Source of the DNA: an uncultured Elusimicrobia bacterium
GTDB lineage: Bacteria; Elusimicrobiota; Elusimicrobia; UBA1565; UBA9628
Direction: 5' to 3'
DNA: 49,692 bases
NCBI GenBank assembly: GCA_964653765.1
Contig: CAZZGQ010000003.1
Span: 5,743-55,434 of the forward strand
Below are positions 5,615 through 47,849 of this stretch, piece by piece. Made by a program: the position numbers and the translations under genes. Within the stretch, counting starts at the first letter, position 1, and every line of letters starts with the position of its first letter. Under the pieces are notes generated by a model. That model was not told the origin of the DNA. It worked only from the letters and a program-made list of their open reading frames with translations, and searched no databases.

Positions 5615-5902
5615 ATGGCCAAGACGCCCGCCGAAGGAGCGCAGAGGTTCAAGCACGCCCCGGATACAGCCTGGCGGCGCATCGACGACGAGGCTGTCGT
5701 CCTCGACCTGCGGACGAGCGTCTACTACTCCCTCAACGACACGGCGGCCCTCATCTGGGAGTGCATCGGCGAGGGCCTGACGACCGAGGCCATCGTCGAG
5801 CGCCTGGCCGAGGACTTCGATCCCCCCCGCGAGGCGGCGCGGCGCGACGTCCAAGAACTGCTGCGCGACCTGAGCAAGAACGAGCTGATCGTCCCGGCCT
5901 AA
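5615..5902 (+). CDS. Stand-alone PqqD-family RiPP recognition element (RRE), 95 aa
   Basis: AWRRIDDEAVVLD...YYSLNDTAALIWE...IVERLAEDFD...ARRDVQELLRDL..NELI. Start reassigned from 5366 to ATG 5615, which follows a TGnTATCGT -10-like box. Confidence 0.92.
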   Translation: MAKTPAEGAQRFKHAPDTAWRRIDDEAVVLDLRTSVYYSLNDTAALIWECIGEGLTTEAIVERLAEDFDPPREAARRDVQELLRDLSKNELIVPA

Positions 5903-28382: not shown

Positions 28383-28433
28383 CGACCTTCGGAGCGTAGC
28401 ATATCGCGCGATGAGATCGAGACTCGTTTCGAG

Positions 28434-28462
28434 TTGACACTGCCGGCCTCGAGCGCTAGACT
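28434..28462 (+). promoter_or_regulatory. sigma70 promoter for the paralog 3/4-rSAM-oxygenase operon
   Basis: TTGACA-N17-TAGACT. Confidence 0.65.
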
Positions 28463-28474
28463 ACGAAAGCCCTC

Positions 28475-30247: not shown

Positions 30248-32034
30248 GCTTCTGCGGCGCCTGGTCCCTCGATGGCCGGCCTATCGCCGAGATCCTCGGC
30301 GAGCCGGAGCGTGCCTCGATGCGCGGGCTGCTGATGCCGACGACCGGCGAGCCCGTTGAGGTCGAAGAGGGCCCGCTTTGGCTGGCGGGCTCGACGGGCT
30401 CGATCGTGCGCGACGGCAGCGGTTGGCTGGGCCTGGAGGGTTTTGTGGCGGGAGCCGGCGACGGCGACGCGCTACGAAAGACGGCCGGCGAGGCCTGCGC
30501 GGCTGGGCGCTGCCGCCTAGACGGCCACTACATCCTGCTCCACGCCGACCCGGTCGGCCGGGCGCTAAGGGCCTGGAGAGACCCTTCGGGAGGGCAACGA
30601 CTTTTTTTCGCTTGCCGCGGACGAGGGCTCCTATTCTCCACGTCAATCCGGCCGCTCCTGGCTCTGCTCGGGAGCCAACTTAACGAGGGACTTCTTTTCG
30701 AGACGGGTTATACGGACCTGGTCCACTTCGGCGACGAGACTCTCTGGCGGGGCGTCCACGAGATCCTGGCCGGCTACCGTCTGTCGGTCGTCCACGGGCG
30801 ACTGGAACACCGCTGGCACTGGGACGACCTTCAAGGCCGCGCGGGAGAGCCGCGCGCGCTGGCGAGCGAGCTCAAGGTCCGCCTGGGAGAGGCCGTCGCC
30901 GCGTCGATCGGGCGCGATGGCGCTGCCGTCGTGACCTTGTCCGGCGGCATCGACTCGGCCTCGGTGGCCGCGCTCGCGGCAGAGGCGGTCGGCGCCCATC
31001 GCGTCCATGCCATCACCTTCGAGTTCGACGATCCATCATGCCGCTCAGAGGTGGAGAGGGCCAGCCTGGTCTGCAAGCACTTGGGCTTGGGCCGGCACAG
31101 CGTTGTTCGCATCTCACGCCGGGATTACGAGCAGTCGATCCCGGAGATCCTCTGGCGCAGCGAACATTTCAACGAGTGGACGCGTTGCGACGGCTTGATC
31201 GTCTCTCGCCGGTTGCGTGAATGGGGCGTCGGCAAGTGCTTGACGGGCGGCGGCATCGGCAGTCACATGGCCTACTTCGAGGACGTGGACGCGGTCCTAC
31301 GCGCGCTGCCCCGGGGCCTGGAGCCTTGGCGGTATTGGCGGGCGGCGCACTTCGGAGGGAGGCCGGGAGACTGGCTGGGGCGCGTTTTCCCGGGTCTGGA
31401 GGCTCCAGCCGGCCGTCAACGATTCCGCCTCTATCTCCCTTTGGCGTACGCGCTCCACCACCGCGGCCTAGCGGATTTGGGCCGCTTCTTTCCCCCGACG
31501 CTTCTCGAACCCGCCCTTCGGACGGCGCAGTCGCCCAGGGTGCGGCAGGCGCTCGAGGAGCACTCGGCGCTGCCGCTGGCGGTTCAATGGCAGCGCCTGG
31601 CGCTCTCCCACCTCGGGGGCCAGATCGACTTCAGCCGCACGGAGCGCGCTGCGCAGGGGGTGGGGGTGCACAAGATATCCCCCGCCTTCTTCGCCTCGTG
31701 CCTGCCGTGGACTTATTTTCCGTTTCGGCCCAAGCCGGCGGCTTGGAGCCCAAGACGCGCGCTGCGTCCGGGCAAGCTGCTGCTGGCGTTGGCCATGCGC
31801 GGGCGGCTGCCCGATGCCGTGATCGACCAGCGAAAGGACTGGTCGACCGGCGACCTCCCCATGAGCTGGCACGAGCGGACCCTGGCGCTGGCCGAGCCCG
31901 TCGAGATCCCTTTCACGCATGCCCGCGGCCGGAGTGTGTTTCTGGCCTATCAATCGCTTTGGCGTCGCATATTCCTCGAACGCCCGCCCGGCCGCGAGCC
32001 GCCGGCCTGGGAGGAGCTCGAGAAGACCGTATGA
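30244..32034 (+). CDS. Asparagine-synthetase/lasso-cyclase-like protein 4
   Basis: MSFCGAW, RDPSGGQRLFF, LSGGIDS, RPGKLLLALAMRGRLP; ATGA overlaps at both ends. Confidence 0.85.
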   Translation: MSFCGAWSLDGRPIAEILGEPERASMRGLLMPTTGEPVEVEEGPLWLAGSTGSIVRDGSGWLGLEGFVAGAGDGDALRKTAGEACAAGRCRLDGHYILLHADPVGRALRAWRDPSGGQRLFFACRGRGLLFSTSIRPLLALLGSQLNEGLLFETGYTDLVHFGDETLWRGVHEILAGYRLSVVHGRLEHRWHWDDLQGRAGEPRALASELKVRLGEAVAASIGRDGAAVVTLSGGIDSASVAALAAEAVGAHRVHAITFEFDDPSCRSEVERASLVCKHLGLGRHSVVRISRRDYEQSIPEILWRSEHFNEWTRCDGLIVSRRLREWGVGKCLTGGGIGSHMAYFEDVDAVLRALPRGLEPWRYWRAAHFGGRPGDWLGRVFPGLEAPAGRQRFRLYLPLAYALHHRGLADLGRFFPPTLLEPALRTAQSPRVRQALEEHSALPLAVQWQRLALSHLGGQIDFSRTERAAQGVGVHKISPAFFASCLPWTYFPFRPKPAAWSPRRALRPGKLLLALAMRGRLPDAVIDQRKDWSTGDLPMSWHERTLALAEPVEIPFTHARGRSVFLAYQSLWRRIFLERPPGREPPAWEELEKTV

Positions 32035-33599
32035 GCGTCGCGGACATCGTCCTGCTGTCGGACTGCACGGGATATGGAGACCTCATCTTCTCCCGTTACA
32101 GCGCTCCTTACGTCCTGGCCACGCGCCTGCGCGCGGCCGGCTTCGGAGTCCGAGTGATCGACTACTTCACGCGCCACCCCGACTTTTTCCCCTATCTGCG
32201 GGGCTTCCTCGGGTCCGAGACGCTTTTCATCGGTCTCTCCTCCACTTTCCTCTCGCAAGGCCGCGAGGCGCACCATGCGCCTATCTCCAAGACGGACCAG
32301 ACCAGGCTCTATCACGAGAGCCTGCTCTGGCACGCCAGCGACGAAGAGACGCAGGCCTGGCTGGCGCGATTGAAGGCGACGCTGGCCGAGGCGAGTCCGG
32401 CAGCCGCTCTCGTCCTCGGCGGCGTCAAGGCGGCGCAGACCCATCGCAAGCCGCAGACGTACGCGGGCGTCCTCGACTATGTCGTATTGGGCCCCGCCGA
32501 CGACGCAATCGTCGAGCTCGCGCGGGCGCTGCGGGCCGGCCGCGCGCCGCCCCACAGCCTCAAGGAGGGAGTGCGCTTCGTCTCAGAAAGCGAGTCGCCC
32601 GCGATCTGCCCCGCCACCGTGCTGAAGGAAGCCGACGCCATCCAGCCGGCCGAGGCCCTGCCCGTCGAGATCAGCCGAGGCTGCCTCTACGACTGCAAGT
32701 TCTGCTACTACGACAAGAAGCGGAGCGTGCGCAAGGACCTGGCCTTGCTGCGCGAGGAGCTGCTTCGCAACTACGAGGGCTTCGGAACCACGGTCTATCA
32801 CTTCTGCGACGACTGCTTCAACGACACGCCGGACAAGGTCGAGGCCGTCTGCGGCATGCTCAGGAAGCTGCCGTTCGAGATAGAGTGGGTCAGCTACGCG
32901 CGTCCCGACGTCCACGTCAAGCGCCCGGAGCTGCTCGACCTGATGATCGAGGCGGGCTGCCGCGGCCTCTACTACGGCCTGGAGACCTTCAATCACGCCG
33001 CCGGCAAAGCCGCGGGCAAGGCCGTGCCGCCCGAGGCGATCAAGCGCTTCTTTTCCCAAGCGTACCCGAAGCACCGCCACCGCGCCTTGTTCGACGCCTC
33101 CTTCGTGATCGGGCTGCCGCACGAGACGGCGGAGAGCCAGCGGCAAACGACGCGATGGCTCATCGAGAACAAGGTCTTCGATCATGTCCACTGCGCGACC
33201 TTGGCGCACGCGCCTTACGACAGCGCGCTCGACAAATTGGCCGTCGACTACGCCGACCATGTGCGCCATCCCGATCGCTACGGCTTCTCGATGCTGCCGA
33301 GCCGCTCCTCTGGGTATTGGCGGCACGCGACGATGGACCTGCCTCAGGCCGCGGCGCTGCAGGAGGAGATGCGCGCGCGCCTCGATGAGGCCTACGGCGT
33401 CCCGGTGGTGCGGAGCTGCTTCATGTACCCGGCGATGCGGACGCTGGGCTTCACCCCTGAGGAGACGTTGCTCATGGCGCGCGAGGGCGCGCTCGACCGG
33501 AGTCAAGCCTGGCTGGCCGAGGCACAGCGCCGGACCCGCGGCTGGCTGACGCGTTACTGGGACGCCTTGGCGGCAACGAGACCGGGGGCCCTCCGATGA
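32031..33599 (+). CDS. B12-binding-domain radical SAM protein
   Basis: N-terminal Rossmann/B12-like domain (LATRLRAAGF.V.VIDY, IGLSST, LVLGG); EISRGCLYDCKFC; DDCFN, YGLET, FVIGLPHET. True start is ATG 32031, not 31221. Confidence 0.88.
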   Translation: MSVADIVLLSDCTGYGDLIFSRYSAPYVLATRLRAAGFGVRVIDYFTRHPDFFPYLRGFLGSETLFIGLSSTFLSQGREAHHAPISKTDQTRLYHESLLWHASDEETQAWLARLKATLAEASPAAALVLGGVKAAQTHRKPQTYAGVLDYVVLGPADDAIVELARALRAGRAPPHSLKEGVRFVSESESPAICPATVLKEADAIQPAEALPVEISRGCLYDCKFCYYDKKRSVRKDLALLREELLRNYEGFGTTVYHFCDDCFNDTPDKVEAVCGMLRKLPFEIEWVSYARPDVHVKRPELLDLMIEAGCRGLYYGLETFNHAAGKAAGKAVPPEAIKRFFSQAYPKHRHRALFDASFVIGLPHETAESQRQTTRWLIENKVFDHVHCATLAHAPYDSALDKLAVDYADHVRHPDRYGFSMLPSRSSGYWRHATMDLPQAAALQEEMRARLDEAYGVPVVRSCFMYPAMRTLGFTPEETLLMAREGALDRSQAWLAEAQRRTRGWLTRYWDALAATRPGALR

Positions 33600-37288: not shown

Positions 37289-37356
37289 TTGCCACTATAA
37301 CAGCCGTCGCTCCGGGCGTCAAGCAACAGTCCGCCAAGAGGCGCATATATTTGGGC

Positions 37357-37385
37357 TTGAACTGCCCAGCTTGATGAGCCATAAT
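37357..37385 (+). promoter_or_regulatory. sigma70 promoter for the precursor-GT4-GT2-kinase operon
   Basis: TTGAAC (37357-37362)-N17-CATAAT (37380-37385); ATG 19 nt downstream. Confidence 0.65.
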
Positions 37386-37404
37386 ACCCCAGTTCGGCCG
37401 AGCG

Positions 37405-37518
37405 ATGACGAAGAAGAGCCCGACGGGCAAGAACGACAAGAAGCGGCGCAAGTACGTCAAGCCGCGCCTCACCCGGCACGGCGAGCTGTCCCAAACGGCG
37501 CTCGCGAAGAGCTACTGA
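37405..37518 (+). CDS. Putative RiPP precursor peptide, 37 aa, with lasso-type RRE-binding leader
   Basis: MTKKSPTGKNDKKRRKYVKPRLTRHGELSQTALAKSY*; YxxPxLxxxG motif; almost all codons end in G/C; own promoter; first gene of the operon. Below the ORF-track length cutoff. Confidence 0.8.
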   Translation: MTKKSPTGKNDKKRRKYVKPRLTRHGELSQTALAKSY

Positions 37519-37539
37519 TCGCCGCCGGCCCGCCCGATC

Positions 37540-38544
37540 ATGATCCGGCGCGTCGCCTTGCTTCCCGCCACGACGCTGTCCGATCCGACTTACGCCCGCG
37601 CGCTGCCGAGCTTGGCCGCCGCCCTGCGGCGCCGCGGCTGGACCTCGAAGGTTTTCCGCTCCCGGCGAGGGGACGCCGCCGCGCTCGACCGCTTCCGCCC
37701 TTCGGTCGCCAACCTGCACTGCGCCGGCCACGTCGACGCGGCGGCCCTGCGTCTGGCGCGGCGCGCGCTGCGCGCCGGCGCGGCCTTGGTCGTCACCCTG
37801 CAGGACCTGGGCCATCCGGAGCTCGCGGCCGCCGAGCGCGCCAGCGCCAGCCGGCTGTCCTTCTTGATGGAGCGAGCGTCGGCTGTCGTCGCGCTGACGC
37901 CGTCCCTCGCGCGTCAGGCGGCCCGGCGCTTCGGCGGACGGCGGCCTCTCGCGATCGGCAACGGCGTCGACGCGCGCTGGTTCCAAGGCTGGACAGAGCG
38001 CCGCGGCCCGGTCACGGCGGTCGGCCGCCTCTGCCCCTATAAAGGGATCGACGTGCTGCTCTGGGCCTTCGCCCGCTGGGCGGAGGGACGGCCCGAGGCG
38101 CGCCTGCGGATCTACGGACGAGACTTCCATCGGGGGCACTATCAACGCCTGGCTCGGCGGCTCGGCCTGGGCGATCGCGTCCGATTCATGGGCTGCGTCG
38201 GCCGGCGCGGCCTGCAAGCGGCGCTCGGCCGTGCCTCGATCGTGGTCAGCGCCTCGCGGCGGGAGACCTACGGCATGGCTCTTCTGGAGGCGATGGCGAG
38301 CGGAGCCCCTCTGGTCGCGACGCGCGTCGGCGTCGCGGCGGAGCTCTTGCGTCATCGCCGCTCGGCCTGGCTCGTCGCGCCCGGAGACCCCGACGGCCTG
38401 GCTCGAGGCCTTGAGTTCGTCGGGGCCGACCGCGCGCTGCGCGAGCGCCTCGGCCGCGAGGCGCGGCGCGCGGCGCGCGGCCAGACCTGGGCCGATCGAG
38501 CGCGCCGCTACGACGCCGTGTTCCGCGAGGCCCTCGATGGCTGA
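37540..38544 (+). CDS. Glycosyltransferase family 4
   Basis: IGNGVD, VGRL..YKG.D, SRRETYGMALLEAMASGAPLVATRVG. Confidence 0.9.
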   Translation: MIRRVALLPATTLSDPTYARALPSLAAALRRRGWTSKVFRSRRGDAAALDRFRPSVANLHCAGHVDAAALRLARRALRAGAALVVTLQDLGHPELAAAERASASRLSFLMERASAVVALTPSLARQAARRFGGRRPLAIGNGVDARWFQGWTERRGPVTAVGRLCPYKGIDVLLWAFARWAEGRPEARLRIYGRDFHRGHYQRLARRLGLGDRVRFMGCVGRRGLQAALGRASIVVSASRRETYGMALLEAMASGAPLVATRVGVAAELLRHRRSAWLVAPGDPDGLARGLEFVGADRALRERLGREARRAARGQTWADRARRYDAVFREALDG

Positions 38545-39580
38545 CCCGGTCCCGGCCGTCACGGTCGTGATCCTGACGCATCGCAGAGCGGCTACCCTGC
38601 GCCGCTGCCTGGACAGCCTGCCCGCTGCGGCGCTGGACTGCGAGGGCCTGCTGCTCGTCAACGGCCCCGAGCCGGGCGAAGCCGAAGGCCTGGAGAGAGA
38701 GGCGACGCTGCGGTGGCCCTGGCTGCGGGTGGTCGCCATCCCCGCGATACCGAGGGGCGCCGCGCGCAACCGAGCCACACGGCTTGCCCGCGGCGAGCTT
38801 GTCCATTTCCTCGACGACGACACCGTCCTTCCCGAGGGGTTCTTCGAGCGCCTGGTCGCCGCAGCGCGGCGCCACCGCGGAGCGCCCGCCCTCGGGGGGC
38901 CGAACGTGTCCACCATCGGAGCGACGGCGTTCCAGCGCGCCGCGGACTTCCTGTTGCGCTCGCCCGTCGGCGCGGGGCCGATGCGCGCCCGCTATCGCGC
39001 CGCGGGAGCGGACAGGCCGGCGCGGGGCTCGGCCTTGATGCTCTGCAACCTGGGAGTCCGCCGGGAGCTGTTTGAGCGACACGGACTGCGCTTCCCGGAT
39101 CGCTGCGCCAGCGCCGAGGAGAACCTGCTGCTCGCGCGCGTCGAGCGCGGCTTCGGCCGTCCGGTCTACTGCCCCTCCCTTCTCGTCCATCACGAGCGGC
39201 GCGGGTCGTTCGTTGCGTTCTGCGACCAGGTCTTCCGCAGCGGCCTCGGCCGCGCCCAGATCACGCGCCTCGACCCTCGCTCCTTCCAGCTCGCGACCCT
39301 GGCGCCGCTCGGGCTCGCTCTGTACGCGGCCGCCCTGCCCTGGCTGCGTCGCGCGTGGCCCCGGGCGGACGCGCCGCTCCTGGCTTACGCCGCGGCCTGG
39401 GCCTTCGAGACGGCGCGGCTGGCGGCGTCGGGGGACGCCGCGGCGGCGCTCTGGCACGCCGCGCTGCTGCCGACGGCTCACTTCTGCTACGCGATCGGCA
39501 TGGCTCGCGGCGTCGCCGAGGCCTTGATTGGGCGTCCCTCCGCGGCCAGCCTCGCCGGCGAGGCCTGCGCGCTGCCGTGA
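38537..39580 (+). CDS. Glycosyltransferase family 2 with C-terminal membrane segments
   Basis: VTVVILT, GAARN, FLDDD, CNL.VRR, AEE, VHHERR. Start reassigned to ATG 38537. Confidence 0.88.
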   Translation: MADPVPAVTVVILTHRRAATLRRCLDSLPAAALDCEGLLLVNGPEPGEAEGLEREATLRWPWLRVVAIPAIPRGAARNRATRLARGELVHFLDDDTVLPEGFFERLVAAARRHRGAPALGGPNVSTIGATAFQRAADFLLRSPVGAGPMRARYRAAGADRPARGSALMLCNLGVRRELFERHGLRFPDRCASAEENLLLARVERGFGRPVYCPSLLVHHERRGSFVAFCDQVFRSGLGRAQITRLDPRSFQLATLAPLGLALYAAALPWLRRAWPRADAPLLAYAAAWAFETARLAASGDAAAALWHAALLPTAHFCYAIGMARGVAEALIGRPSAASLAGEACALP

Positions 39581-40566
39581 GCGAGCTGCGCCTCGACGTC
39601 CACGGCGTCCGGGCGAGCCTTCGCTGCGACGACGAGGGCGTGCGCGAGGCCCTGCGCCGCGACTTCGAGTACTTCGAGGTCGAGCGGGACGGCGCTCCCG
39701 ACGTCGCGCTCGAGCTCAAGCGTCGGCCGCCGGAGCCTTTTCCTCTTTCGCCTTGGTCGTGGCGGGGACCGGGTTACGCCGCGCAGACGCGCGGGAGCGT
39801 GCGCCGGATCAGGTACGAGGATGACGCCACCGCTGTATACGATTACGCCTCGCGCCGCGGCGTCGTGACCTGCGGCCATGCGGAGCGGCTCCACGAGCTC
39901 GGCTATCTCGCGGCGCTCTCTCGCGTCGGTGAGGAGCTCGACCGCCGTGGCCTCCACCGCGCGCATGCGCTCGGCTTCGAGAGCGGCGGCCGCGGCGGGC
40001 TGCTCCTGCTGCCGTCGGGCGGCGGCAAGAGCACTCTCGCCCTGGAGCTGTTGCGCGCCGGGCGGCTGCGCCTCCTCTCCGACGACACCCCGATCGTCGC
40101 CGAGGACGGCGGCCTGCGCGCCCTCCCGCTCCGTCTGGGTTTGCGAAACGGCGCCGATCTAGCAGGCGTGCCCGCGGCCTGCGTCCGTCCGTTCGAGCGC
40201 CGGCGCCACGGGCCCAAGATGCTCGTCGAGCTGGACTTCTTCCGCGAGCGCGTGGCGGCCGCGGCCGCGCCAAGGTGGTTGCTGGTCGGCAGCCGGCGCG
40301 CCGGCAAGGCGAGGCTTTGGTCTGCCTCGGCGGCGGAGGCGGCCGCGGGACTCGGGCTCAATCTCGTCGTCGGCTGGGGCGTGGCGCAGATGAGCGAGTA
40401 CATGCTGCGCGGCTCGCCGGCCGGCGCGGCCTTTCTGGCTTCCATCGCGGCCCGCAGGACGCGCGCCGCGGCGGCTCTGGTGCGTCGATGCGAGATCTTG
40501 CGCTTCGAGCTGGGCGACGATCCCAGGCGCGCGGCGGCCGCGTTAGCCGAGCTGGCCCAGCGCTGA
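39577..40566 (+). CDS. HPr-kinase-like P-loop protein
   Basis: HRAHALG, LLLPSGGGKSTL (Walker A), LLSDD; GTGA coupled to GT2; start GTG 39577. Confidence 0.78.
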   Translation: MSELRLDVHGVRASLRCDDEGVREALRRDFEYFEVERDGAPDVALELKRRPPEPFPLSPWSWRGPGYAAQTRGSVRRIRYEDDATAVYDYASRRGVVTCGHAERLHELGYLAALSRVGEELDRRGLHRAHALGFESGGRGGLLLLPSGGGKSTLALELLRAGRLRLLSDDTPIVAEDGGLRALPLRLGLRNGADLAGVPAACVRPFERRRHGPKMLVELDFFRERVAAAAAPRWLLVGSRRAGKARLWSASAAEAAAGLGLNLVVGWGVAQMSEYMLRGSPAGAAFLASIAARRTRAAAALVRRCEILRFELGDDPRRAAAALAELAQR

Positions 40567-43500
40567 GAGCTGCGCCGTGCACCAAGCGCTCGCCGCCGAG
40601 AGGTCAGGGCTCTCGCTGCCCGCGCAGAGTTTGTGCCAGAGCGCCCGGAGGGCCGAGGCGCCTTCCGGGAACTCGCGGGCGTGCAGCTCGACGAGGAGGT
40701 CCAGCCCGAACGTCGGCGCGGACAGGCCGCGCTCAAGACGCAGGCGCAAGGTGAGGACGCGACTGAGCAGATAGTGGAGCGCGTAGCCGCGCGAAAGGCC
40801 GCTCGCCGGCGACGTCTGGAATCGCCACGTGCAGCGCAGCGTGGCGAGCGCCTCGCGCGAGAGGTCGAGCGAGAGCTCCTCGCCGGCCGGCGCGACAGCG
40901 AGAGCGGGAAGGTTCCAGGCATACTGCCAGACGCCGGGCAGCGCCTGCCCCGCCTCGTACAACGCGTCCTCCCCCGTCGTTCCCGGCTCCAGGAAGCGCA
41001 GGGGCGACTCGAGGTACGCCAGGCGCGACCAGGCGGCCCAGACCCCGCGCGTTACGAGCAGCGGCAGAGTGCTCGGCCGGTCCTCCGGCGGCAGGCCCGA
41101 GAGCGCCTCGAACGCGGCCGTCCAGGCTCCTGCCGGCGCCTCGTCCTCGAGGACGAGCCAGCTGCGGTAGACGTCGTCGCAGCAGCCGGCGACGAGAACG
41201 GGGCCGAGCGCCTGGGCAAGGCGCTCCCGCCACGCGCGTCGCCGAGCGAGCTCGATCGGGGCGGCGGGAGCGGCAGCGACCCTCGGAGGCTCGGGAGGCC
41301 GCGCGCCGGGGGCGGCGATCCGCCAGGCCGGCGCGGCCGCGGAGGCGAGCCCGTCGAGGGTCGCCAGGCCCGCGGCGCACAGCTCCGCCCTCGCCCGCGG
41401 GTCGTCGCGCCCCTCGGCCGCGGCGCGCGCCAGCGCCGACAGGGCGAGGCGGTACGGCCGCGCGGCGGAGCCGGCGGCGTCGAAAGCGGTCTCGCGAGAG
41501 AGGGCGAGAGGCTCGCCAGGCGGGGTCGCGCTGACGCGCAGGAGATCCCTGGCGGCCTTCTCCGCGTGGCTCGCCGCGACGGCGGGGGACGACGGCGGCC
41601 ACAGCGCCCACGCCATCAGCCGCGTGTAGGCATGAGCGGTCTCGCCGAGCGGCTCGAGCGCCTCCTTTGGAGAAACCGGCCGAGGCTGCTCCGACGGCGC
41701 GCGGCCCGAGAGGACGAAGAGCTGCCGCGAGAGATCGCGCGCGCGCAGGCCTCCCCATCGGGCGTAGGCCGCCCAGTCCGCAGGCGTGGCCGTCAGGCAT
41801 TCGCCCAGGAACGGAAAGGGTTTCTTGAGTCGCAGCCACCGCCGCCAATGCCGCGACAGCCAAGCGGGTCCCCCAGCTCCATCCAAATCCCTCGCCCCGA
41901 TGAGAAGATCCACGTCGCTCGTGCCGGGCTGCCAAACGCCGGCGGCCCAGCTACGGTGGGCCGCTAGGAAGGCGACGCGACGGTCCAAGGCGCAGGCGGC
42001 CTGGAAAATCCGAACAGGCAAGACGTAGATGAGGCGGTAGGCACGCCCCAGCACCGGCCAGCGCCGCGTCCGCAGCACGGCCGCCAGAATGCCGCGCCGC
42101 GCGGCCGCGGCCCAGAGCTCCGCCAGCCTCGGCGAGACGACCTCCTCCACGTCGGCGCCGGCGGCGGCGAAGACGCGGTCGACGCAGCCGCGGAACGTGA
42201 CGCTCTCGTAGCGGTGGCGGCCGGACTCGAAGCTCAGACCGACCCGGGAAGCCCGCGATACCGAGGAGGCGCGCAGGCGCGTCGTTCCCGCGGCGGCGGC
42301 CAGAGCGACGGCGCAGCGCTCGAAGCGGCAGCGCTCGAGGAACGCGCGGCCCGGGCCGGCGACGCGGACGGCCGCCGAGCCTACGTCCGTCCATACGCAG
42401 CCGGAGGCCGTTAGAGAGCCGCTCTCGAGTTCGACCGCCGGCCCCTCGACGCCGCCGATCGCCAAGCCCTCCAGCGTGGCCTGCGCGCCCGGCCCCAGGC
42501 GCAGTCCGCGCGCTCCGCCACGCGCCCCGCCAATCCGCCACGCCAGGCGGCCCTCATCGACGTCGATGACGGCTCGGCAGTCCTCGAACAGGGCGTCCGT
42601 CAGCCGGGCCTCGCCGTGGAGCGAGGCTCCCGAGCCGGCGCCGCGGACGTTCAATCGGCCGGCCTCCAAGTCTGCGCCGTGGGAGCGAAGAGCGCACTCC
42701 GCGATGCCTGAGAGGGTCACGTCGCCGAGCCGAGCGGCCCCTTCCTCGAAGGATAGGCCGCGCCCGCAACGCCGCGCCGACAGACGGATGAGCTCGACCG
42801 CGGTCCGCCGGGTGGATAGCGCGCCGCGCTCGCTGCCGTCCACGGAGACGCCCTCCAGCCTAGCCCGGCCTCCGTCTAGCACGACACCGTCGTCGCATCG
42901 GAGGACGTCCAGGCTCGTCACCTCCACCTCGGAATCCCGAGCGGAGAGCCCCACGACGCGGCAGTCGGCCAACGACAGGCCTCGCAGTCGAGCCTTCCCT
43001 CCGCGCAAGACCAGGCCACAGGTCCCTCCTGAAACCCTAAGCTCGGAGGCGTCCAGCTGCGAGGCCTCCGCGTCGACGCCAGCGTCTTGGCAGCCCTCGA
43101 TCCCCACCTCCTCGAGCTGCAACGGTCCCGAGCGAGCGCTGACTCCGACGCCGCAGCGCTCGACGCGGCACCGTCTCAGCGACAAGCCCTCGGCCTCGCG
43201 CGCCAAAACGCCGACGAGGGGCCAGCCCGTGATCAGGACATCCGAGGCCTCCAAGCGCGCCCTATGGAGGTCGACGGCCTGGCCGCTGCCGTCGGCCAGC
43301 GTCACCTGCTCAAGCCGGCCGCGCGCGCCCTCGCCTAGGCGCACCCCGCCGCTCGAGCGCAGGGAGCCGTGGACCCACTGCAGGACGCCGGAGCGCGCTC
43401 CGACGCCGCCGGGGCAGCGCTCCACCTCCAACCTCCGCGCCCGGACCTCCCCGCCCAGGACGTCGATCGCCGCGCCGCAGCCCGCGACGCGCGCATCCGC

Positions 43501-45069
43501 TAATTCGAGCGAGCCCTCCACGCGAGCCGCCGTCACGCTCTGCCCTCTGAGGGCGACGTCAGCGAGAGCGAGCCGCCCGCCGGCGAGCTCGAGGCCGAGC
43601 CGTCCTCCTTCCACGGCGCCTCCCGTCCACACGACGCGCCCCCCTCTCTGCGCCAGACCGGTGTCGCAGCCGACGAGCGAGAGGGCGCGAGCCTCGAGGC
43701 TCTCCCCGGCGAAGCGGACGCCGCGCGCGCAATCGGCGACGGTGAACCGCTCGAGGACCTGGCGCCGGCCGTCGAGCTCCAGTCCCGCGTCGCTCATGCG
43801 CGCCACCCGGGTGTCGCCCAGCCGGGCCTCGCCCGCCCGAACACCGACTCCCAGTCTTCCATCGGAGATACGGCAGCGTTCTACGACAAGCTCGCCCCCG
43901 TCGGCGAAGACGCCGCAGTCCGCCTCGTCGATCGACGTGTCCTCGGCGGACAGCCGTCCTGCCACGACAGCGAGGCCGCGCTCGCGGCAGCGCTCAAGCC
44001 GGCAGCGCGCGAGCGCTGCCTGCGCGCCCGCCCCGCGCACGGCGAGCCCGGCGCCGCAGTCCCGCAGCGCGACGTCCTCGAGAGACGCCTGGGCGGAGTC
44101 CGTCACGACGACCGCTTCGCGCTCGCAGGCCGCGAGCTCCGCGTGCGCCAACCGCGAGCCGGCCGAGGCGCCCACGAAGTGGAGCCCCGCCCAAGGCGAG
44201 CCTCCGAAGCGGGCGGGCGCCTTCGGGGAGCCCTCGACGAGCAGCCGGCCCGCAACGACGAGCCGGCAGCGTCCGGCGGATCCGCCGCCCTCGCTCAGGC
44301 GCCAGCCGCGCGGCTCCGCCGTGCAGTCCCAGCGCGACTTCGCCGCCAGGCGCACGTCGGCGCCGGCTTCAACCCTCAAGGTGACTCCAGGGGGCACGAA
44401 GACGTCTCCCTCGACGTTGACGACACCGGACCAGGTACGATCCTCGTCGAGATAGCCGATCTCGGGACGCGGAGCGCGGGCCGCTGCCGGCGCGGGCACG
44501 ACAGCCCCGCAGGCCCACGCGGCAGCGCGGCGCTGGAGCGCTATGCCCGCCGCGGAGACCGCCCGATCGCGGGCGGTCATCGCAGACAGGAGCAGACGCT
44601 GGACGCCCCGCGCCCGAAGCGGACCCGGCAAGCGCGACCAAGCAAGCGAGAGGACCTCGCGCGAGGCACGGTCGAGAGCCGTCAACGCTCGATAGACCGG
44701 CGCTCCCGCCAGGCAGAGCAGCGCGGCGCGACCCAGGCTTGGCCGGCGGGCAGCGAGCCAGCGGCCGTGGAATTGAGCCGCCGCGGCGCGGCCGACGACG
44801 CTGGAGGCGGCTGTCGGGCGGTCCGGCCACAGGTTGGAGTCCCCCTTCGTCAGGGCGTACCGGATCCCCTTCCAGCGCACGGAGGCGAGCAGGCGGTGGA
44901 CGACGTAGGCGGGCTCGCTGTCCTTCCACTCCAGGAGCACAGCGAGATCGCCGGGCCGCAGGTCCTCGAGGCGGGCCCGCTCGACGAGGACAGCGTCGCC
45001 CGCCTTGAGCAGGAAGCGCATGGACTCGCCGCGCACGGAGAGCGTCCAGGCCCCGGCGGCCGGACTCAC
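40543..45069 (-). CDS. ~1508-aa fusion: S24/S26 peptidase + right-handed beta-helix + Pol-beta-like nucleotidyltransferase
   Basis: VRGESM, VVHRL, TKGDSN..D (Sec11/SipW type); long beta-helix-type repeats; SW..G.WQPGTSDVDL (DxD). Start GTG 45069. Confidence 0.75.
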   Translation of the reverse strand: MSPAAGAWTLSVRGESMRFLLKAGDAVLVERARLEDLRPGDLAVLLEWKDSEPAYVVHRLLASVRWKGIRYALTKGDSNLWPDRPTAASSVVGRAAAAQFHGRWLAARRPSLGRAALLCLAGAPVYRALTALDRASREVLSLAWSRLPGPLRARGVQRLLLSAMTARDRAVSAAGIALQRRAAAWACGAVVPAPAAARAPRPEIGYLDEDRTWSGVVNVEGDVFVPPGVTLRVEAGADVRLAAKSRWDCTAEPRGWRLSEGGGSAGRCRLVVAGRLLVEGSPKAPARFGGSPWAGLHFVGASAGSRLAHAELAACEREAVVVTDSAQASLEDVALRDCGAGLAVRGAGAQAALARCRLERCRERGLAVVAGRLSAEDTSIDEADCGVFADGGELVVERCRISDGRLGVGVRAGEARLGDTRVARMSDAGLELDGRRQVLERFTVADCARGVRFAGESLEARALSLVGCDTGLAQRGGRVVWTGGAVEGGRLGLELAGGRLALADVALRGQSVTAARVEGSLELADARVAGCGAAIDVLGGEVRARRLEVERCPGGVGARSGVLQWVHGSLRSSGGVRLGEGARGRLEQVTLADGSGQAVDLHRARLEASDVLITGWPLVGVLAREAEGLSLRRCRVERCGVGVSARSGPLQLEEVGIEGCQDAGVDAEASQLDASELRVSGGTCGLVLRGGKARLRGLSLADCRVVGLSARDSEVEVTSLDVLRCDDGVVLDGGRARLEGVSVDGSERGALSTRRTAVELIRLSARRCGRGLSFEEGAARLGDVTLSGIAECALRSHGADLEAGRLNVRGAGSGASLHGEARLTDALFEDCRAVIDVDEGRLAWRIGGARGGARGLRLGPGAQATLEGLAIGGVEGPAVELESGSLTASGCVWTDVGSAAVRVAGPGRAFLERCRFERCAVALAAAAGTTRLRASSVSRASRVGLSFESGRHRYESVTFRGCVDRVFAAAGADVEEVVSPRLAELWAAAARRGILAAVLRTRRWPVLGRAYRLIYVLPVRIFQAACALDRRVAFLAAHRSWAAGVWQPGTSDVDLLIGARDLDGAGGPAWLSRHWRRWLRLKKPFPFLGECLTATPADWAAYARWGGLRARDLSRQLFVLSGRAPSEQPRPVSPKEALEPLGETAHAYTRLMAWALWPPSSPAVAASHAEKAARDLLRVSATPPGEPLALSRETAFDAAGSAARPYRLALSALARAAAEGRDDPRARAELCAAGLATLDGLASAAAPAWRIAAPGARPPEPPRVAAAPAAPIELARRRAWRERLAQALGPVLVAGCCDDVYRSWLVLEDEAPAGAWTAAFEALSGLPPEDRPSTLPLLVTRGVWAAWSRLAYLESPLRFLEPGTTGEDALYEAGQALPGVWQYAWNLPALAVAPAGEELSLDLSREALATLRCTWRFQTSPASGLSRGYALHYLLSRVLTLRLRLERGLSAPTFGLDLLVELHAREFPEGASALRALWHKLCAGSESPDLSAASAWCTAQLSALGQLG

Positions 45070-45079: not shown

Positions 45080-46429
45080 TCAGGCGTTGGCCGCCTCCGG
45101 ATTGAGCTCGTCGAGGAAGCCCAGCGCCTGCTGGCACCACTTGTCGAGGAATATCTCGCGATTGATCTTAGCCCGCTCGGCCATGGCCTCGAAGCCCTGG
45201 AACGTCTTGTGGCCGTGATGGAGGACGAAGACGTCGCGCGCCACGACGACGTCGCAGCCGGCCTGCCGCAGCCGCAGGCAGTAGTCGAACTCCTCGTAGG
45301 TGCCCAGCCCGAAGCGCTCGTCCAAGTAGCCGACACGGTCGAGAGCCTCCCGTTTGATCATGAGGCAGAAGCCGGTGAGGCGGTGGACGCCCTCGGCCTG
45401 GCCCGCGTGCTTGAGCGCCCAGGCCTGCGAGAACATCGCAAGGTCGCGCGGCGTCTTGAAGGAGGGCGCCTCGACGCGTTGGAAGCCGACGGTCTCGTTG
45501 GTGCACGGACCCACAGCCGCGATCCAAGGAGCTCGCTCCGCGCAGTCGATCAGGCGCTCGAGCCAGCCAGGAGTGACAACGACGTCGTTGTTGAGCCAGA
45601 CGATGTACTTGCCGCGCGCGGCGCGCATGCCCTGGTTGATCGCCTTGGCAAAGCCGAGGTTGCTCTCATTGCGGATGACGCGCGCCCCCGCCCGCCGGGC
45701 CCAAGCCGCCGTGCCGTCCGATGAACTGTTATCGACGACTATGACCTCGTGAGCCGTCTTGGTGTGGGCCGCCACAGCTTCCAGACATTCCTTAGTGTAG
45801 GCGAGGCCGTTGAAGCAGGGAACGATGATCGTGGAGAGACCGCGCGGCGGCCGAGGACGTCCTACGGCCCGCAGCCGAGCGCTCATCCACCCGGCGTCGC
45901 AGCGGGGGCGGCGCGAGAAACGGCCGGCGTCGGCTCGCGGCCCCCCGAACGCCCAGATCTCGTCGGCGGCGCATGCCTGTCGCGCGGCCGCCTCTCGCGC
46001 GCGGCGCCGAGCCAAGAAGCCGTCGCCATCCAACGCGGCGCGCGGCCGCTCGAACCCCGGGCGCCGGTCGAGCATCGCCAGGACGACGGGCTTCTTACTG
46101 AAGCTCTTGAGCGGCTCGAGGGCAGCGCGGGTCCTCGGGTCATCGATGAGGACAGCAGCAGCGTAGTCGCGTGCGGCCAAAGCCTCGCGGCAGCGCGCCA
46201 GCAGCGCCGCCTCCGAGGCCGGGAAAGCCAGGGCCACACGAGGTCCAAGCGAGCGGAGCGCCGCCTGCTCGGCCGCCGACGGACCGGCCGCCAACACGTC
46301 GACGGACCAGCGCTTGGCGAGCTCAGACAGCAGCCTCTTGAGCTCGCGGTCCGCCTCCCCGCTCGGCAGGCGCGGCACGACAGCGAGCAGGCGTCCCAGC
46401 GCGGAGTCAGCGCGTTGCGAGGGTCTCAT
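45080..46429 (-). CDS. Glycosyltransferase family 2 with an extra N-terminal domain
   Basis: IIVPCFN, VVDNSSSDGT, NLGFAKAINQG, WLNND, GFC, LDERFGLGTYEEFDYC. Confidence 0.9.
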   Translation of the reverse strand: MRPSQRADSALGRLLAVVPRLPSGEADRELKRLLSELAKRWSVDVLAAGPSAAEQAALRSLGPRVALAFPASEAALLARCREALAARDYAAAVLIDDPRTRAALEPLKSFSKKPVVLAMLDRRPGFERPRAALDGDGFLARRRAREAAARQACAADEIWAFGGPRADAGRFSRRPRCDAGWMSARLRAVGRPRPPRGLSTIIVPCFNGLAYTKECLEAVAAHTKTAHEVIVVDNSSSDGTAAWARRAGARVIRNESNLGFAKAINQGMRAARGKYIVWLNNDVVVTPGWLERLIDCAERAPWIAAVGPCTNETVGFQRVEAPSFKTPRDLAMFSQAWALKHAGQAEGVHRLTGFCLMIKREALDRVGYLDERFGLGTYEEFDYCLRLRQAGCDVVVARDVFVLHHGHKTFQGFEAMAERAKINREIFLDKWCQQALGFLDELNPEAANA

Positions 46430-47558: not shown

Positions 47559-47849
47559 GGGTTCATTCTATCACTTCTCTCGTTCGCAGAGCAGCGGCAC
47601 CACCAATCCGAGAAAGAGCAGGCGAGCGCGCCAGGCGCGCCAGCCCACGAGACTCTCCTGCCGCACGCCGCGATGTAGGAAACCATCCACGCTCGCGCTT
47701 GCGATTTGCTATTATAAGCGCCGAAGGCCACCACCCCCCAGCTTGTGGGACAACTCGAGGTGGCCTTCATCATTTTAGGTCGCTTGGTCCGCGCGGCTTG
47801 GGCCCTTTGGCTGGCGGGCCGTCCTCGCCCGCTTGTTATAATTTACATG

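What the first reader, a model, noticed from the sequence alone, without database searches (positions are those of the whole stretch)
37405..37518. Unannotated RiPP precursor: lasso-type leader with a tiny acid-free core (TALAKSY)
Seen: a 37-aa ORF with its own TTGAAC-N17-CATAAT promoter, strong codon bias and YVKPRLTRHG, heading a GT4-GT2-HPr-kinase-like operon. Established: YxxPxLxxxG is the RRE-binding motif of lasso leaders, and lasso cores need an Asp/Glu at positions 7-9. Only 5-6 residues follow the Thr here and none is acidic, so this cannot be a lasso peptide. Inference: a different RiPP class. Either Thr(-2) cleavage gives LAKSY, or an S26-type cut after A-L-A gives K-S-Y. Ser/Tyr could be phosphorylated or glycosylated, or K-x-Y could be cross-linked by a radical SAM enzyme, by analogy to three-residue rSAM cyclophanes.
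Basis: partly seen in the sequence, partly recalled or inferred. Interest (0 to 1): 0.92.

Follow-up and report, generated by a model that had tools for sequence, protein, structure and literature searches.

The report
Tiny lasso-leader precursor peptide family
A real, conserved 37-residue gene encodes a peptide with a lasso-type recognition motif but only a six-residue tail; it is most likely the substrate of a kinase, peptidase and glycosyltransferase pathway resembling the recently described linear phosphorylated peptides, here in a different bacterial phylum.

Summary
The 37-codon ORF at 37405-37518 is real. GC at codon positions 1/2/3 is 0.47/0.47/0.95, relatives differ mostly at third positions, and homologues occur in 39 of 101 genomes of its order, in Elusimicrobiota. 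All have a Lys/Arg-rich N-terminus, a Y-x-K-P-x-L-x-x-H-G-x-L block and short, class-specific tails, here T-A-L-A-[KRH]-S-Y. The tail is too short and acid-free for a lasso.

Across genomes the peptide co-occurs with three partners:
- a lasso-type PqqD/RRE, in 39/39 peptide-positive versus 12/62 peptide-negative genomes;
- a single-copy HprK-like kinase, 37/39 versus 7/62;

A GT4 gene starts right after the peptide's stop codon in 23/42 loci. A complex model places residues 14-29 on the RRE (score 0.70, best control 0.02).

This gene set and leader motif match the 'linear polyphosphorylated peptides' (LPP) reported in Bacillota in 2026 (PMC13381572). New here are the phylum, the 6-14-residue conserved tails, the radical-SAM partners, the GT4 coupling and a peptidase domain fused to a giant beta-helix protein. 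No NTP-transferase or MsbA-type exporter was found. The chemistry is untested.

The parts
37357..37385 (+). Sigma-70-like promoter match TTGAAC-N17-CATAAT, ending about 19 nt before the ATG
   Evidence: 9/12 consensus matches; 2 sites found in 4.6 kb against 0.1 in shuffles. Pattern match only.
37405..37518 (+). 37-aa precursor-like peptide, tail class A
   Evidence: (GC3 0.95). One copy in its own genome.
37453..37488 (+). Codons for Y17-L28, the Y-x-K-P-x-L-x-x-H-G-x-L block (predicted RRE-binding leader motif)
   Evidence: P20, H25, G26 and L28 are invariant and Y17 nearly so in 29 sequences. Residues 14-29 form the modelled interface with PqqD.
37495..37515 (+). Codons for T31-Y37 (TALAKSY), the short class-specific tail and presumed site of modification
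   Evidence: T31, A32, L33, A34, S36 and Y37 are invariant in 9 class-A sequences; residue 35 is K/R/H. The tail is not in the modelled RRE interface.
37540..38544 (+). GT4 glycosyltransferase, starting 21 nt after the peptide's stop codon
   Evidence: Pfam Glycos_transf_1 2e-31. A GT4 homologue starts within -60..+200 nt of the peptide stop, on the same strand, in 23 of 42 loci.
38537..39580 (+). GT2 glycosyltransferase; its start overlaps the GT4 stop
   Evidence: Pfam Glycos_transf_2 3e-12. Best NCBIfam hit is MftF, 58.6 bits, far below the cut-off of 280. Start.
39577..40566 (+). HprK/PEPCK-fold P-loop kinase (HprK-like)
   Evidence: Weak TIGR04352/TIGR04355 matches. Invariant LPSGGGKS...SDD block in 7 homologues. 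Model pLDDT 91. Foldseek hits PEP carboxykinases and HPr kinase/phosphatase 1ko7 and 1kkl. Single copy in 44 of 101 genomes, 37 of them peptide-positive.
40543..45069 (-). About 1,500-aa protein: N-terminal archaeal-type signal-peptidase-I (S26) domain (about 44707-45045), then a right-handed beta-helix
   Evidence: TIGR02228 2.9e-10, 40 bits against a cut-off of 51.85; Beta_helix 4.6e-15. It is the only such domain found in the genome. SM..GD, HR and TKGD blocks are conserved in 9 homologues. Start.
45080..46429 (-). GT2 glycosyltransferase with a 198-aa N-terminal extension that has no family match
   Evidence: Pfam Glycos_transf_2 3e-33. Best NCBIfam hit is MftF, 84.8 bits, below the cut-off of 280.
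46407..47558 (-). Radical SAM/SPASM enzyme
   Evidence: Radical_SAM 9e-15 and SPASM 1e-5. No equivalog reached. Homologues lie in 11 of 42 peptide loci, and in L021 one lies directly after a PqqD gene.
5615..5902 (+). Discrete PqqD-family RRE of the lasso B1 type, 31.5 kb upstream of the peptide
   Evidence: Pfam PqqD 3e-19. Best NCBIfam hit is the lasso PqqD chaperone, 60 bits against a cut-off of 70. Best solved relatives are TbiB1 at 7e-17 and TfuB1. It is the only PqqD over cut-off in the genome. Complex model.
32031..33599 (+). B12-binding radical SAM enzyme (possible further member)
   Evidence: Homologues lie in 27 of 42 peptide loci, mostly tail class C, where the order is PqqD, B12-rSAM, DegT, peptide, GT4.

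Best explanation
The ORF encodes the substrate (precursor) peptide of a non-lasso, RRE-dependent peptide-modification pathway. The pathway is built like the linear polyphosphorylated peptides (LPP) of Bacillota but occurs in Elusimicrobiota and sits inside a polysaccharide-type locus.

Proposed course:
1. The discrete PqqD protein binds the leader block Y17-L28 as an added beta-strand (modelled).
2. Held in this way, the free tail T31-Y37 is presented to the single-copy HprK-like kinase. The kinase phosphorylates a Ser, with invariant Ser36 the best candidate (inferred by analogy).
3. The S26-type peptidase domain of the giant beta-helix protein removes the leader, most likely after Thr31, giving A-L-A-K-S-Y (inferred by analogy).
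4. The translationally coupled GT4, the GT2 enzymes and the radical SAM/SPASM enzyme decorate the tail further, with sugars on the phosphate or on Ser/Tyr and possibly radical chemistry at the C-terminal Tyr (speculative).

Shown: the gene is real and under purifying selection; the peptide, RRE, kinase and peptidase domain co-occur across genomes; the peptide is physically coupled to a GT4 gene. Inferred: every chemical step.
For: Coding signal and conservation.

Separate ORF, not a broken GT4 start: stops are TGA, TAA or TAG, and the frame relative to the next gene varies over 0, 1 and 2 in 17 loci.

Leader: Y, P, L and G of the lasso motif YxxPxLxxxG are present (for the motif). His at Y+8 and a hydrophobic residue at Y+11 match the LPP consensus YxxPxVLxHQxI.

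RRE: best relatives are lasso B1 proteins.

Complex model: score 0.70 against a best control of 0.02. That mark was reached by 58 of 80 solved complexes and 2 of 110 mismatched pairs. The runs agree in at least 94% of contacts and the partner's pLDDT is 61. Peptide residues 14-29 lie on PqqD residues 34-44 and 78-91.

Genome-level co-occurrence in 101 genomes of the order: PqqD 39/39 against 12/62, HprK-like 37/39 against 7/62, S26-like 30/39 against 9/62. The pattern is patchy within one genus: g16 has the peptide in 9, the kinase in 10 and PqqD in 11 of 38 species.

Physical linkage: PqqD lies within 10 kb in 28/42 loci. A GT4 lies directly downstream in 23/42. The S26 domain lies 97 and 260 nt from the peptide in L091 and L106.

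Own genome: one peptide, one PqqD over cut-off, one kinase and one S26-like domain, all on this contig.

Precedent (PMC13381572; sections 6 and 12 and passages read): RRE-dependent cleavage after a Thr by an SipW-like peptidase, polyphosphorylation of a core Ser by an HprK-like kinase, and clusters embedded in glycosyltransferase-rich capsule loci.
Against: - No modification, cleavage, binding or expression was observed.
- The complex model may pass from memory of solved lasso RRE-leader complexes.
- Two of the five LPP core genes were not found in the window: an NTP transferase (PF14907 gives only a sub-threshold hit on another contig) and an MsbA-like exporter (only an ABC-2 pair).
- The S26 domain scores below its curated cut-off (40-46 bits against 51.85) and is fused to a giant protein that may serve polysaccharide biology instead.
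- Thr31 lies at Y+14, not at Y+15 as in LPP, nor at the G+6 spacing of lasso leaders.
- Tail classes B and C have no Thr there, and class C has no C-terminal Ser or Tyr, although those genomes carry the same kinase.
- The kinase lies within 10 kb of the peptide in only 10 of 42 loci.
- In this genome the RRE is 31.5 kb away.
- Related genomes are not independent, so the co-occurrence counts overstate the support.
Confidence: 0.6

Rival explanations
1. Mycofactocin-like scaffold. The peptide only carries its C-terminal residues. The radical SAM/SPASM enzyme, guided by the PqqD protein, oxidatively decarboxylates or cross-links the C-terminal Ser-Tyr. A peptidase then releases a small tyrosine-derived molecule, which the MftF-like GT2 enzymes glycosylate.
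For: C-terminal Tyr is invariant in classes A, B and D. PqqD is directly followed by the rSAM/SPASM gene in L021. For both GT2 proteins the best NCBIfam hit is the mycofactocin glycosyltransferase MftF. The rSAM matches the mycofactocin maturase at 1e-16. Strong conservation of the tail fits a cofactor-like product better than an antibiotic.
Against: All these matches are far below cut-off: MftF 59 and 85 bits against 280, MftC 61 against 265, and MftC is not the best rSAM hit. No MftD-like or MftE-like family appeared in the Pfam scans of the window's ORFs. The tail ends in Ser-Tyr, not Val-Tyr. Class C tails end in Gly-Asp. The rSAM/SPASM enzyme lies in only 11 of 42 loci, whereas the kinase is almost universal at genome level.
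Confidence: 0.1
2. Ribosomal primer or anchor for a glycan. The tail's Ser or Tyr, possibly after phosphorylation, is the acceptor on which the coupled GT4 and the many other transferases of the locus build a sugar chain. The product is a peptide-linked polysaccharide exported by the ABC-2 transporter.
For: A GT4 is translationally coupled to the peptide in 23/42 loci. Of the 42 loci, 34 hold GT2, 30 GT4, 20 DegT aminotransferase, 10 sulfatase-family and 7 ABC-2 genes within 10 kb. The window as a whole is a polysaccharide-type locus. Tails are conserved rather than hypervariable. In pseudomycoidin, hexoses are added to a phospho-Ser (passages of PMC8498205). LPP clusters lie in capsule loci.
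Against: Neighbourhood is not proof of action on the peptide. No GT4-peptide contact was tested. Polysaccharide genes can surround a RiPP cluster without acting on it, as the LPP authors caution. No peptide-primed polysaccharide of this kind came up in the six literature searches made here.
Confidence: 0.12
3. Regulatory upstream ORF. Translation of the small ORF only controls expression of the GT4-GT2-kinase operon, and the peptide has no function of its own.
For: The ORF sits at the head of the operon, 21 nt before the GT4 gene, and a short gap or overlap is common in relatives.
Against: The amino-acid sequence is conserved with mostly third-position changes. The conserved block is a known RRE-binding motif. 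The peptide co-occurs with PqqD in 39/39 genomes. In L022, L061, L063 and others the peptide is not followed by a GT4 gene, and in L022 it lies at the end of the operon.
Confidence: 0.04
4. Decayed lasso precursor or chance ORF. It is a truncated remnant of a lasso gene, or the broken 5' end of the GT4 gene, with which it is in frame.
For: The leader is lasso-like. Four asparagine-synthase homologues lie at 23308-32034. In this window the ORF is in the same frame as the GT4 gene.
Against: The same short tails end at a stop codon in dozens of genomes, with TGA, TAA and TAG and all three relative frames. Divergence is dominated by third positions, as expected under purifying selection. No lasso B2 peptidase domain scores over cut-off in the genome, which is 87.7% complete. 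The AsnS homologues score 20-49 bits against a lasso-cyclase cut-off of 525, and they were detected by tblastn (E<=1e-5) in none of the 11 relatives' loci tested.
Confidence: 0.02

Closest known systems
Linear polyphosphorylated peptides (LPP; LppA/B/K/S/N/D) of Bacillota, Popov et al., Nat Commun 2026, PMC13381572 (outline, sections 6 and 12, and passages read)
   Same: - Linear, non-lasso peptide with a lasso-type YxxPx[V/L] leader, plus His at Y+8.
- Discrete lasso-type RRE.
- HprK-like kinase.
- Archaeal-type signal-peptidase-I-like leader peptidase.
- Location inside glycosyltransferase-rich polysaccharide loci.
- No macrolactam cyclase or B2 peptidase.
   Different: - The phylum is Elusimicrobiota, whereas the paper calls LPP restricted to Bacillota.
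- Tails have 6-14 residues and are conserved within classes. LppA has a 45-residue core, and LPP C-termini are described as highly variable.
- The leader has a Lys/Arg-rich N-terminus and H-G-x-L instead of H-Q-x-I-x-F-E-T.
- No NTP transferase or MsbA-type exporter was found in the window.
- The peptidase domain is fused to a beta-helix protein of about 1,500 aa.
- There are extra partners: radical SAM/SPASM or B12-radical SAM enzymes, and a GT4 coupled to the peptide.
- Homology to LppB, LppK and LppS could not be measured, because their sequences were not at hand.
Phosphorylated and phosphoglycosylated lasso peptides (paeninodin, pseudomycoidin); review PMC8498205, passages read
   Same: An HPr-kinase homologue acts on the linear precursor at a Ser at or near the C-terminus. 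Sugars can then be added to the phosphate. The leader and RRE are of the same type.
   Different: Those are true lassos with a cyclase, a B2 peptidase and a C-terminal Ser. Here the tail is too short, has no acidic residue and ends in Tyr, and no B2 peptidase was found.
Lasso peptide precursors (leader YxxPxLxxxGxxxxxTx; PMC6856326, passages read)
   Same: Y17, P20, L22 and G26 fit the leader motif. The RRE's best solved relatives are TbiB1 and TfuB1.
   Different: Thr31 lies at G+5, not G+6. The core would have 5-6 residues without Asp/Glu, against 14-24 residues with Asp/Glu at positions 7-9.
Mycofactocin (MftA-F); knowledge recalled, family models from NCBIfam
   Same: Small peptide with C-terminal Tyr, a PqqD-type chaperone, a radical SAM/SPASM enzyme and a GT2 whose best family hit is MftF.
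   Different: All matches are far below the equivalog cut-offs. There is no MftD or MftE. The peptide ends in Ser-Tyr, not Val-Tyr. A kinase and an S26 domain are present instead.
NCBIfam 'HPr-rel-A system' (TIGR04352 kinase, TIGR04353 PqqD chaperone)
   Same: Pairing of an HprK-related kinase with a PqqD-family peptide chaperone.
   Different: Both window proteins score far below the cut-offs: 20 against 200 bits and 23.6 against 35 bits.

Membership tests
Lasso peptide precursor | Leader motif YxxPxLxxxG with a Thr near the leader end | tested here: met
   Y17, P20, L22, G26 and T31 are read directly. The motif is from PMC6856326. The Thr is one residue closer to the Gly than in the motif.
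Lasso peptide precursor | Core of 14-24 residues with Asp/Glu at position 7, 8 or 9 | tested here: not met
   Six residues (ALAKSY) follow T31 and none is acidic.
Lasso peptide precursor | B2 leader peptidase (PF13471) and lasso cyclase in the genome | tested here: not met
   PF13471: the best hit is 19.4 bits, below the cut-off of 26, in a genome that is 87.7% complete. The AsnS homologues score 20-49 bits against a cut-off of 525 for NF033535.
LPP (Popov et al. 2026) | Precursor with the conserved leader YxxPxVLxHQxIxFETxxS | tested here: inconclusive
   Y, P, [V/L] at +5, H at +8 and [I/L] at +11 are shared. Q, F-E-T and the S at +18 are not (one search compared with the consensus quoted).
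LPP (Popov et al. 2026) | Discrete lasso-type RRE | tested here: met
   It is 31.5 kb from the peptide here and within 10 kb in 28/42 loci.
LPP (Popov et al. 2026) | HprK-like kinase | tested here: met
   for motif and fold. Co-occurrence is 37/39 against 7/62. Direct homology to LppK was not measured.
LPP (Popov et al. 2026) | Archaeal-type signal peptidase I (SipW-like) leader peptidase | tested here: inconclusive
   The domain is present with SM..GD, HR and TKGD blocks. It scores below the TIGR02228 cut-off and is fused to a giant beta-helix protein. That these blocks are the catalytic ones is recalled, not tested.
LPP (Popov et al. 2026) | NTP transferase (LppN) | tested here: not met
   None was found in the Pfam scans of the window's ORFs. 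PF14907 in the own genome gives 29.4 bits, below 31.2, on contig C40. That PF14907 is the relevant family is recalled.
LPP (Popov et al. 2026) | MsbA-like exporter (LppD) | tested here: not met
   The only transporters in the window are an ABC-2 permease and an ABC ATPase fused to DegT.
LPP (Popov et al. 2026) | Polyphosphorylation of a core Ser and RRE-dependent cleavage after Thr | not testable with these tools
   Needs expression and mass spectrometry.
Mycofactocin system | MftC, MftF and MftB equivalogs, a C-terminal Val-Tyr, and MftD and MftE | tested here: not met
   MftC 61 bits against 265, MftF 59 and 85 against 280. The tail ends in Ser-Tyr. No MftD or MftE family appeared.
NCBIfam HPr-rel-A system | TIGR04352 kinase and TIGR04353 PqqD over their cut-offs | tested here: not met
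   20.1 against 200 bits and 23.6 against 35 bits.
   Residue 35 is K, R or H in 9 class-A sequences.

The most novel reading that the evidence does not exclude
These mini-peptides may be ribosomally made primers or anchors for a glycoconjugate. After RRE-guided phosphorylation and trimming, the six-residue tail would be the acceptor on which the translationally coupled GT4 and the surrounding transferases build a phospho-sugar chain. Part of the cell's polysaccharide would then be peptide-primed, and the tail class (…SY, …LY, …EGD) would specify which glycan or which radical-SAM chemistry is attached.
Probability: 0.15. Interest if true: 0.85.

Novelty: new variant of a known kind. Interest (0 to 1): 0.62.

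Why it matters
The biological role and final product of the LPP family are unknown, and its authors regard it as confined to Bacillota. This finding suggests that the same logic (lasso-type leader, discrete RRE, HprK-like kinase, SipW-like peptidase, no cyclase) exists in soil and groundwater Elusimicrobiota, a phylum with little natural-product biology on record.

Here the tail is reduced to 6-14 residues and conserved within classes, and it is tightly coupled to a glycosyltransferase. Such a minimal substrate would be a convenient handle for three tasks:
- working out what the kinase, peptidase and sugar transferases actually make;
- testing whether these peptides are linked to capsule or exopolysaccharide biology;
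- improving genome-mining rules, which miss 35-40-codon genes.

Tried and rejected
Family scans of the peptide: Pfam and NCBIfam gave no match at E<=0.01. The peptide profile found nothing among solved structures at E<=10.

ESM Atlas: the nearest clusters are unnamed 'hypothetical protein' clusters. The nearest named one is a lasso leader family (DUF5972) at 0.77, which is only a lead.

The kinase against PDB sequences gave nothing meaningful. The fold search was needed instead.

The rSAM/SPASM enzyme against PDB gave only generic hits: MoaA, SkfB, cytosylglucuronate decarboxylase and PqqE.

Expression: no RNA holder was listed. The four runs laid were DNA contigs and only show that the stretch is identical there.

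Broken or read-through GT4 start: rejected.

Cut after A-L-A by a secretory signal peptidase: rejected as the leading option. There is no hydrophobic core, the motif is absent from other tail classes, and the LPP peptidase cuts after Thr.

K-x-Y cross-link: rejected as the conserved chemistry.

The four AsnS homologues as lasso cyclases: rejected.

Ser at Y+12 (Ser29) as a universal phosphorylation site: considered, because class B often has Asp/Glu there. Other members have P, K, N, A or T at that position, so it was dropped.

Literature: six searches found no paper on this Elusimicrobiota family. The LPP paper came up. Its supplementary files, which give the taxonomic spread of the SpI homologues, could not be read and may list non-Bacillota members.

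Rows dropped: the neighbourhood analysis used 42 of the 45 peptide hits. G081:C438, G066:C138 and G012:C284 were left out because their contigs are short. Many of the 42 loci are cut by contig ends, so the counts are lower bounds.
Full report
**Observation.** The ORF at 37405-37518 (+) reads MTKKSPTGKNDKKRRKYVKPRLTRHGELSQTALAKSY. GC content at codon positions 1/2/3 is 0.47/0.47/0.95 in a window of about 68% GC. A promoter-like TTGAAC-N17-CATAAT lies at 37357-37385. It is one of two matches in 4.6 kb, against 0.1 expected from shuffles, and the other serves the divergent gene. Downstream on the same strand lie a GT4 gene (37540-38544), a GT2 gene (38537-39580) and an HprK-like gene (39577-40566). 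The latter two junctions overlap. Convergent to them lie three genes on the minus strand:
- a roughly 1,500-aa protein with an N-terminal archaeal-type signal-peptidase-I domain and a beta-helix (40543-45069);
- a second GT2 gene (45080-46429);
- a radical SAM/SPASM gene (46407-47558).

The window is G000:C3:5743-55434 of a 4.0-Mb, 87.7%-complete assembly, and it holds the only copy of the peptide gene. Contigs of four soil-metagenome runs from two studies carry 37250-37700 without any difference, although some of them may be the source of this DNA.

**The ORF is a gene, and a separate one.**
- A single-sequence search of 41 related genomes found three strong small-ORF matches (E 1e-9 to 1e-10) and many weaker ones.
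- Reading the loci showed one family with a Lys/Arg-rich N-terminus, a Y-x-K-P-x-L-x-x-H-G-x-L block and short tails.
- A profile of 12 sequences found the family in 39 of 101 genomes of the order.
- A profile of 29 sequences found it in 37 of 401 sampled genomes of the phylum, mostly in the same order with weaker hits in a few other families.
- Record titles name the organisms as Elusimicrobia/Elusimicrobiota MAGs.
- Among 1.84 billion cluster representatives, 43 proteins match at E<=1e-3. Forty-one of these are 34-77 aa long; the two longer ones, P0013 and P0020, carry repeats of the motif.
- In 29 aligned sequences P20, H25, G26 and L28 are invariant and Y17 nearly so.
- Between class-A relatives, codon differences number 363 at third positions against 159 and 140 at the first two.
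- In this window the ORF happens to be in frame with the GT4 gene. In 17 loci, however, the stops are TGA, TAA or TAG and the relative frame is 0, 1 or 2, so it is not a broken GT4 start.

**Tail classes.** The tails fall into classes:
- A: …T-A-L-A-[KRH]-S-Y, as here;
- B: …A-A-F-S-x-L-Y;
- C: …V-L-S-I-[VI]-E-G-D;
- D: …A-Y-Y;
- others.

In nine class-A sequences T31, A32, L33, A34, S36 and Y37 are invariant, and residue 35 is K, R or H. Some genomes carry two classes.

**Not a lasso.** Lasso cores have 14-24 residues and close a ring on Asp/Glu at positions 7-9, and their leaders carry YxxPxLxxxGxxxxxTx (passages of PMC6856326). Here the leader motif is present, but only six residues follow Thr31 and none is acidic. 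No B2 peptidase domain passes its cut-off in the genome. The four tandem asparagine-synthase homologues at 23308-32034 score 20-49 bits against a lasso-cyclase cut-off of 525. They were detected by tblastn (E<=1e-5) in none of the 11 relatives' loci tested.

**Partners.**
- *RRE.* The only PqqD domain over cut-off in the genome lies at 5615-5902, 31.5 kb upstream. Its best family match is the lasso PqqD chaperone (60 bits, cut-off 70). Its best solved relatives are the lasso RREs TbiB1 (7e-17) and TfuB1, well ahead of PqqD itself.
- *Kinase.* It has no Pfam match and only weak NCBIfam matches. Seven homologues share an invariant LPSGGGKS…SDD block. The model has pLDDT 91. Foldseek returns PEP carboxykinases (TM about 0.54) and HPr kinase/phosphatase, with 20-21% identity over the core. 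In public data the listed homologues that carry a name are 'hypothetical protein' of Elusimicrobia.
- *Peptidase.* The S26-type domain is the only one found in the genome. It keeps SM..GD, HR and TKGD blocks in nine homologues. That these are the catalytic blocks of SipW-type peptidases is my recollection, not a test.

**Co-occurrence.** Counts in the 101 genomes of the order (tabulated):

| Partner | Peptide-positive genomes | Peptide-negative genomes |
|---|---|---|
| PqqD homologue | 39/39 | 12/62 |
| HprK-like kinase (one copy per genome) | 37/39 | 7/62 |
| S26-like domain | 30/39 | 9/62 |

The two peptide-positive genomes without the kinase are 79% and 84% complete. All four elements occur together in 29 genomes, and every kinase-positive genome is PqqD-positive. 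The distribution is patchy within a single genus: g16 has the peptide in 9, the kinase in 10 and PqqD in 11 of 38 species. The 99%-complete genome of the window's own genus lacks all four. This argues for a module that is gained and lost together. Related genomes are not independent, so these counts are not statistics.

**Neighbourhoods.** I analysed up to 10 kb on either side of the peptide for 42 of the 45 peptide hits, by class A 9, B 7, C 15 and other 11. The other three hits were dropped because their contigs are short. Many loci are cut by contig ends, so counts are lower bounds.
- A PqqD homologue lies within 10 kb in 28/42 loci: C 14/15, other 8/11, A 3/9, B 3/7.
- A GT4 gene starts within -60..+200 nt of the peptide's stop, on the same strand, in 23/42 loci: B 7/7, C 8/15, A 5/9, other 3/11.
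- Clustering of neighbouring ORFs gave these locus counts: GT2 34, GT4 30, B12-radical SAM 27, DegT aminotransferase 20, TPR 12, rSAM/SPASM 11, HprK-like 10, sulfatase family 10, a small radical SAM enzyme 7 and ABC-2 permease 7.
- The enzyme sets differ by tail class. Class C has the operon PqqD, B12-rSAM, DegT, peptide, GT4. Class A has peptide, GT4, GT2 and kinase facing S26/GT2 and rSAM/SPASM, with PqqD directly before the rSAM gene in L021.
- The S26 domain lies within 10 kb in the window and 8 other loci. It lies 97 and 260 nt from the peptide in L091 and L106.

**Complex model.** PqqD (alignment of 8 sequences) with the peptide (alignment of 29) scored 0.70, against 0.02 for the best of three controls. 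That mark was reached by 58 of 80 solved complexes and 2 of 110 mismatched pairs. The runs agree in at least 94% of contacts, and the partner's pLDDT is 61. Peptide residues 14-29 lie against PqqD residues 34-44 and 78-91, and the tail is left free. Lasso RRE-leader complexes have been solved, so the pass may come from memory. It shows likeness, not binding.

**Comparison with what is known.** Popov et al. (Nat Commun 2026, PMC13381572; outline, sections 6 and 12 and passages read) describe 'linear polyphosphorylated peptides' in Bacillota:
- The clusters are embedded in capsular, glycosyltransferase-rich loci.
- The precursors have 35-200 aa with the leader YxxPxVLxHQxIxFETxxS.
- Cleavage follows a Thr and requires the RRE, and core Ser3 is polyphosphorylated.
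- The final product and the role are unknown.
- The family is said to be restricted to Bacillota.

The present family shares the leader positions Y, P, [V/L], H at Y+8 and [I/L] at Y+11. It also shares the RRE type, the kinase type, the peptidase type, the kind of locus and the lack of a cyclase. It differs in phylum, in its tiny class-conserved tails, in its basic N-terminus and in lacking an NTP transferase and an MsbA-type pump. It further differs in having the peptidase fused to a beta-helix giant, in its radical-SAM partners and in the GT4 coupling. Earlier work showed that HPr-kinase homologues phosphorylate the C-terminal Ser of linear lasso precursors, and that hexoses are added to that phosphate in pseudomycoidin (passages of PMC8498205).

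**Mechanism proposed (inference).**
1. PqqD binds Y17-L28.
2. The kinase phosphorylates a Ser of the exposed tail. Invariant Ser36, preceded by a basic residue, is the best guess.
3. The S26 domain cuts, probably after Thr31.
4. GT4 and GT2 add sugars, and the rSAM/SPASM enzyme may act on the C-terminal Tyr.

Several points weaken this. Classes B and C lack a Thr at that place. Class C lacks a Ser or Tyr at its C-terminus, although those genomes carry the same kinase. The S26 giant and the transferases may serve only the polysaccharide.

**Rivals kept open:** a mycofactocin-like scaffold (0.10), a glycan primer (0.12), a regulatory upstream ORF (0.04) and a decayed lasso gene or chance ORF (0.02).

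**Verdict.** The core of the interpretation (a non-lasso RiPP-type precursor) is supported by conservation, linkage and modelling. The details are untested, and the K-x-Y idea is disfavoured. Novelty is rated as a new variant of a known kind, and interest as 0.62.

Noticed in passing
Relatives: L031, L087, L098, L101, L102, L104 (e.g. L087:4764-7600): Tail class C (…VLSI[VI]EGD) sits in a compact operon ordered PqqD, B12-binding radical SAM, DegT/DnrJ aminotransferase, peptide, GT4, often with a methyltransferase nearby. This enzyme set differs from the window's class A. From recall, an aminotransferase plus methyltransferase acting on a peptide C-terminus resembles daptide biosynthesis.
   Followed up: partly
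window 23308-32034 (with 26940-28382 on the minus strand): Four tandem asparagine-synthase homologues (630, 615, 590 and 596 aa), interrupted by an amidase gene and followed by a B12-radical SAM gene. Their matches to lasso and albusnodin macrolactam cyclases are weak and far below cut-off.
   Followed up: partly
window 15873-17837 (+): A single ORF fuses an ABC-transporter ATPase domain to a DegT/DnrJ sugar-aminotransferase domain, next to an ABC-2 permease. The same fusion recurs in relatives L022 and L023.
   Followed up: no
P0013 (382 aa), P0034 (69 aa), L014:1474-1902: The leader-like block (P-Y-x-x-P-x-L-x-x-H-G) also occurs as four to five repeats in a 382-aa protein and twice in a 69-aa Cys-rich peptide. 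It also occurs at the start of a 142-aa ORF with a longer C-terminal domain. These may be multi-unit precursors.
   Followed up: no
L091:1027-1323 (G067:C115): The S26-like domain encoded directly after the peptide gene has Cys where the other eight homologues have the Ser of the S-M block.
   Followed up: no
window 37294-37385: Two divergent promoter-like sites share the 116-nt intergenic region. The minus-strand site (TTGACG-N17-TATAGT, 10/12 matches) faces a 262-aa protein with a signal-peptide-like N-terminus and no family match. That gene is not conserved next to the peptide in relatives.
   Followed up: partly
window 45836-46429 (minus strand; N-terminal 198 aa of the GT2 at 45080-46429): The GT2 has a 198-aa N-terminal extension without any Pfam match. 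It is conserved in L021 (alignment from residue 33) but absent from the L022 homologue, where a PqqD gene follows instead.
   Followed up: no
window 2930-7131: GT9-like, TPR, PqqD and PEP-CTERM/XrtA-type GT4 (TIGR03087, 220 bits, below cut-off 317) genes sit together. In relative L022 the PqqD and GT9 genes lie beside the kinase operon. This suggests that the window's system is split over two sites of one large polysaccharide locus.
   Followed up: partly
window 47745-49691: The mechanosensitive-channel gene runs off the end of the window, which is also the end of contig C3. Anything downstream of the rSAM side of the cluster is therefore unseen.
   Followed up: no
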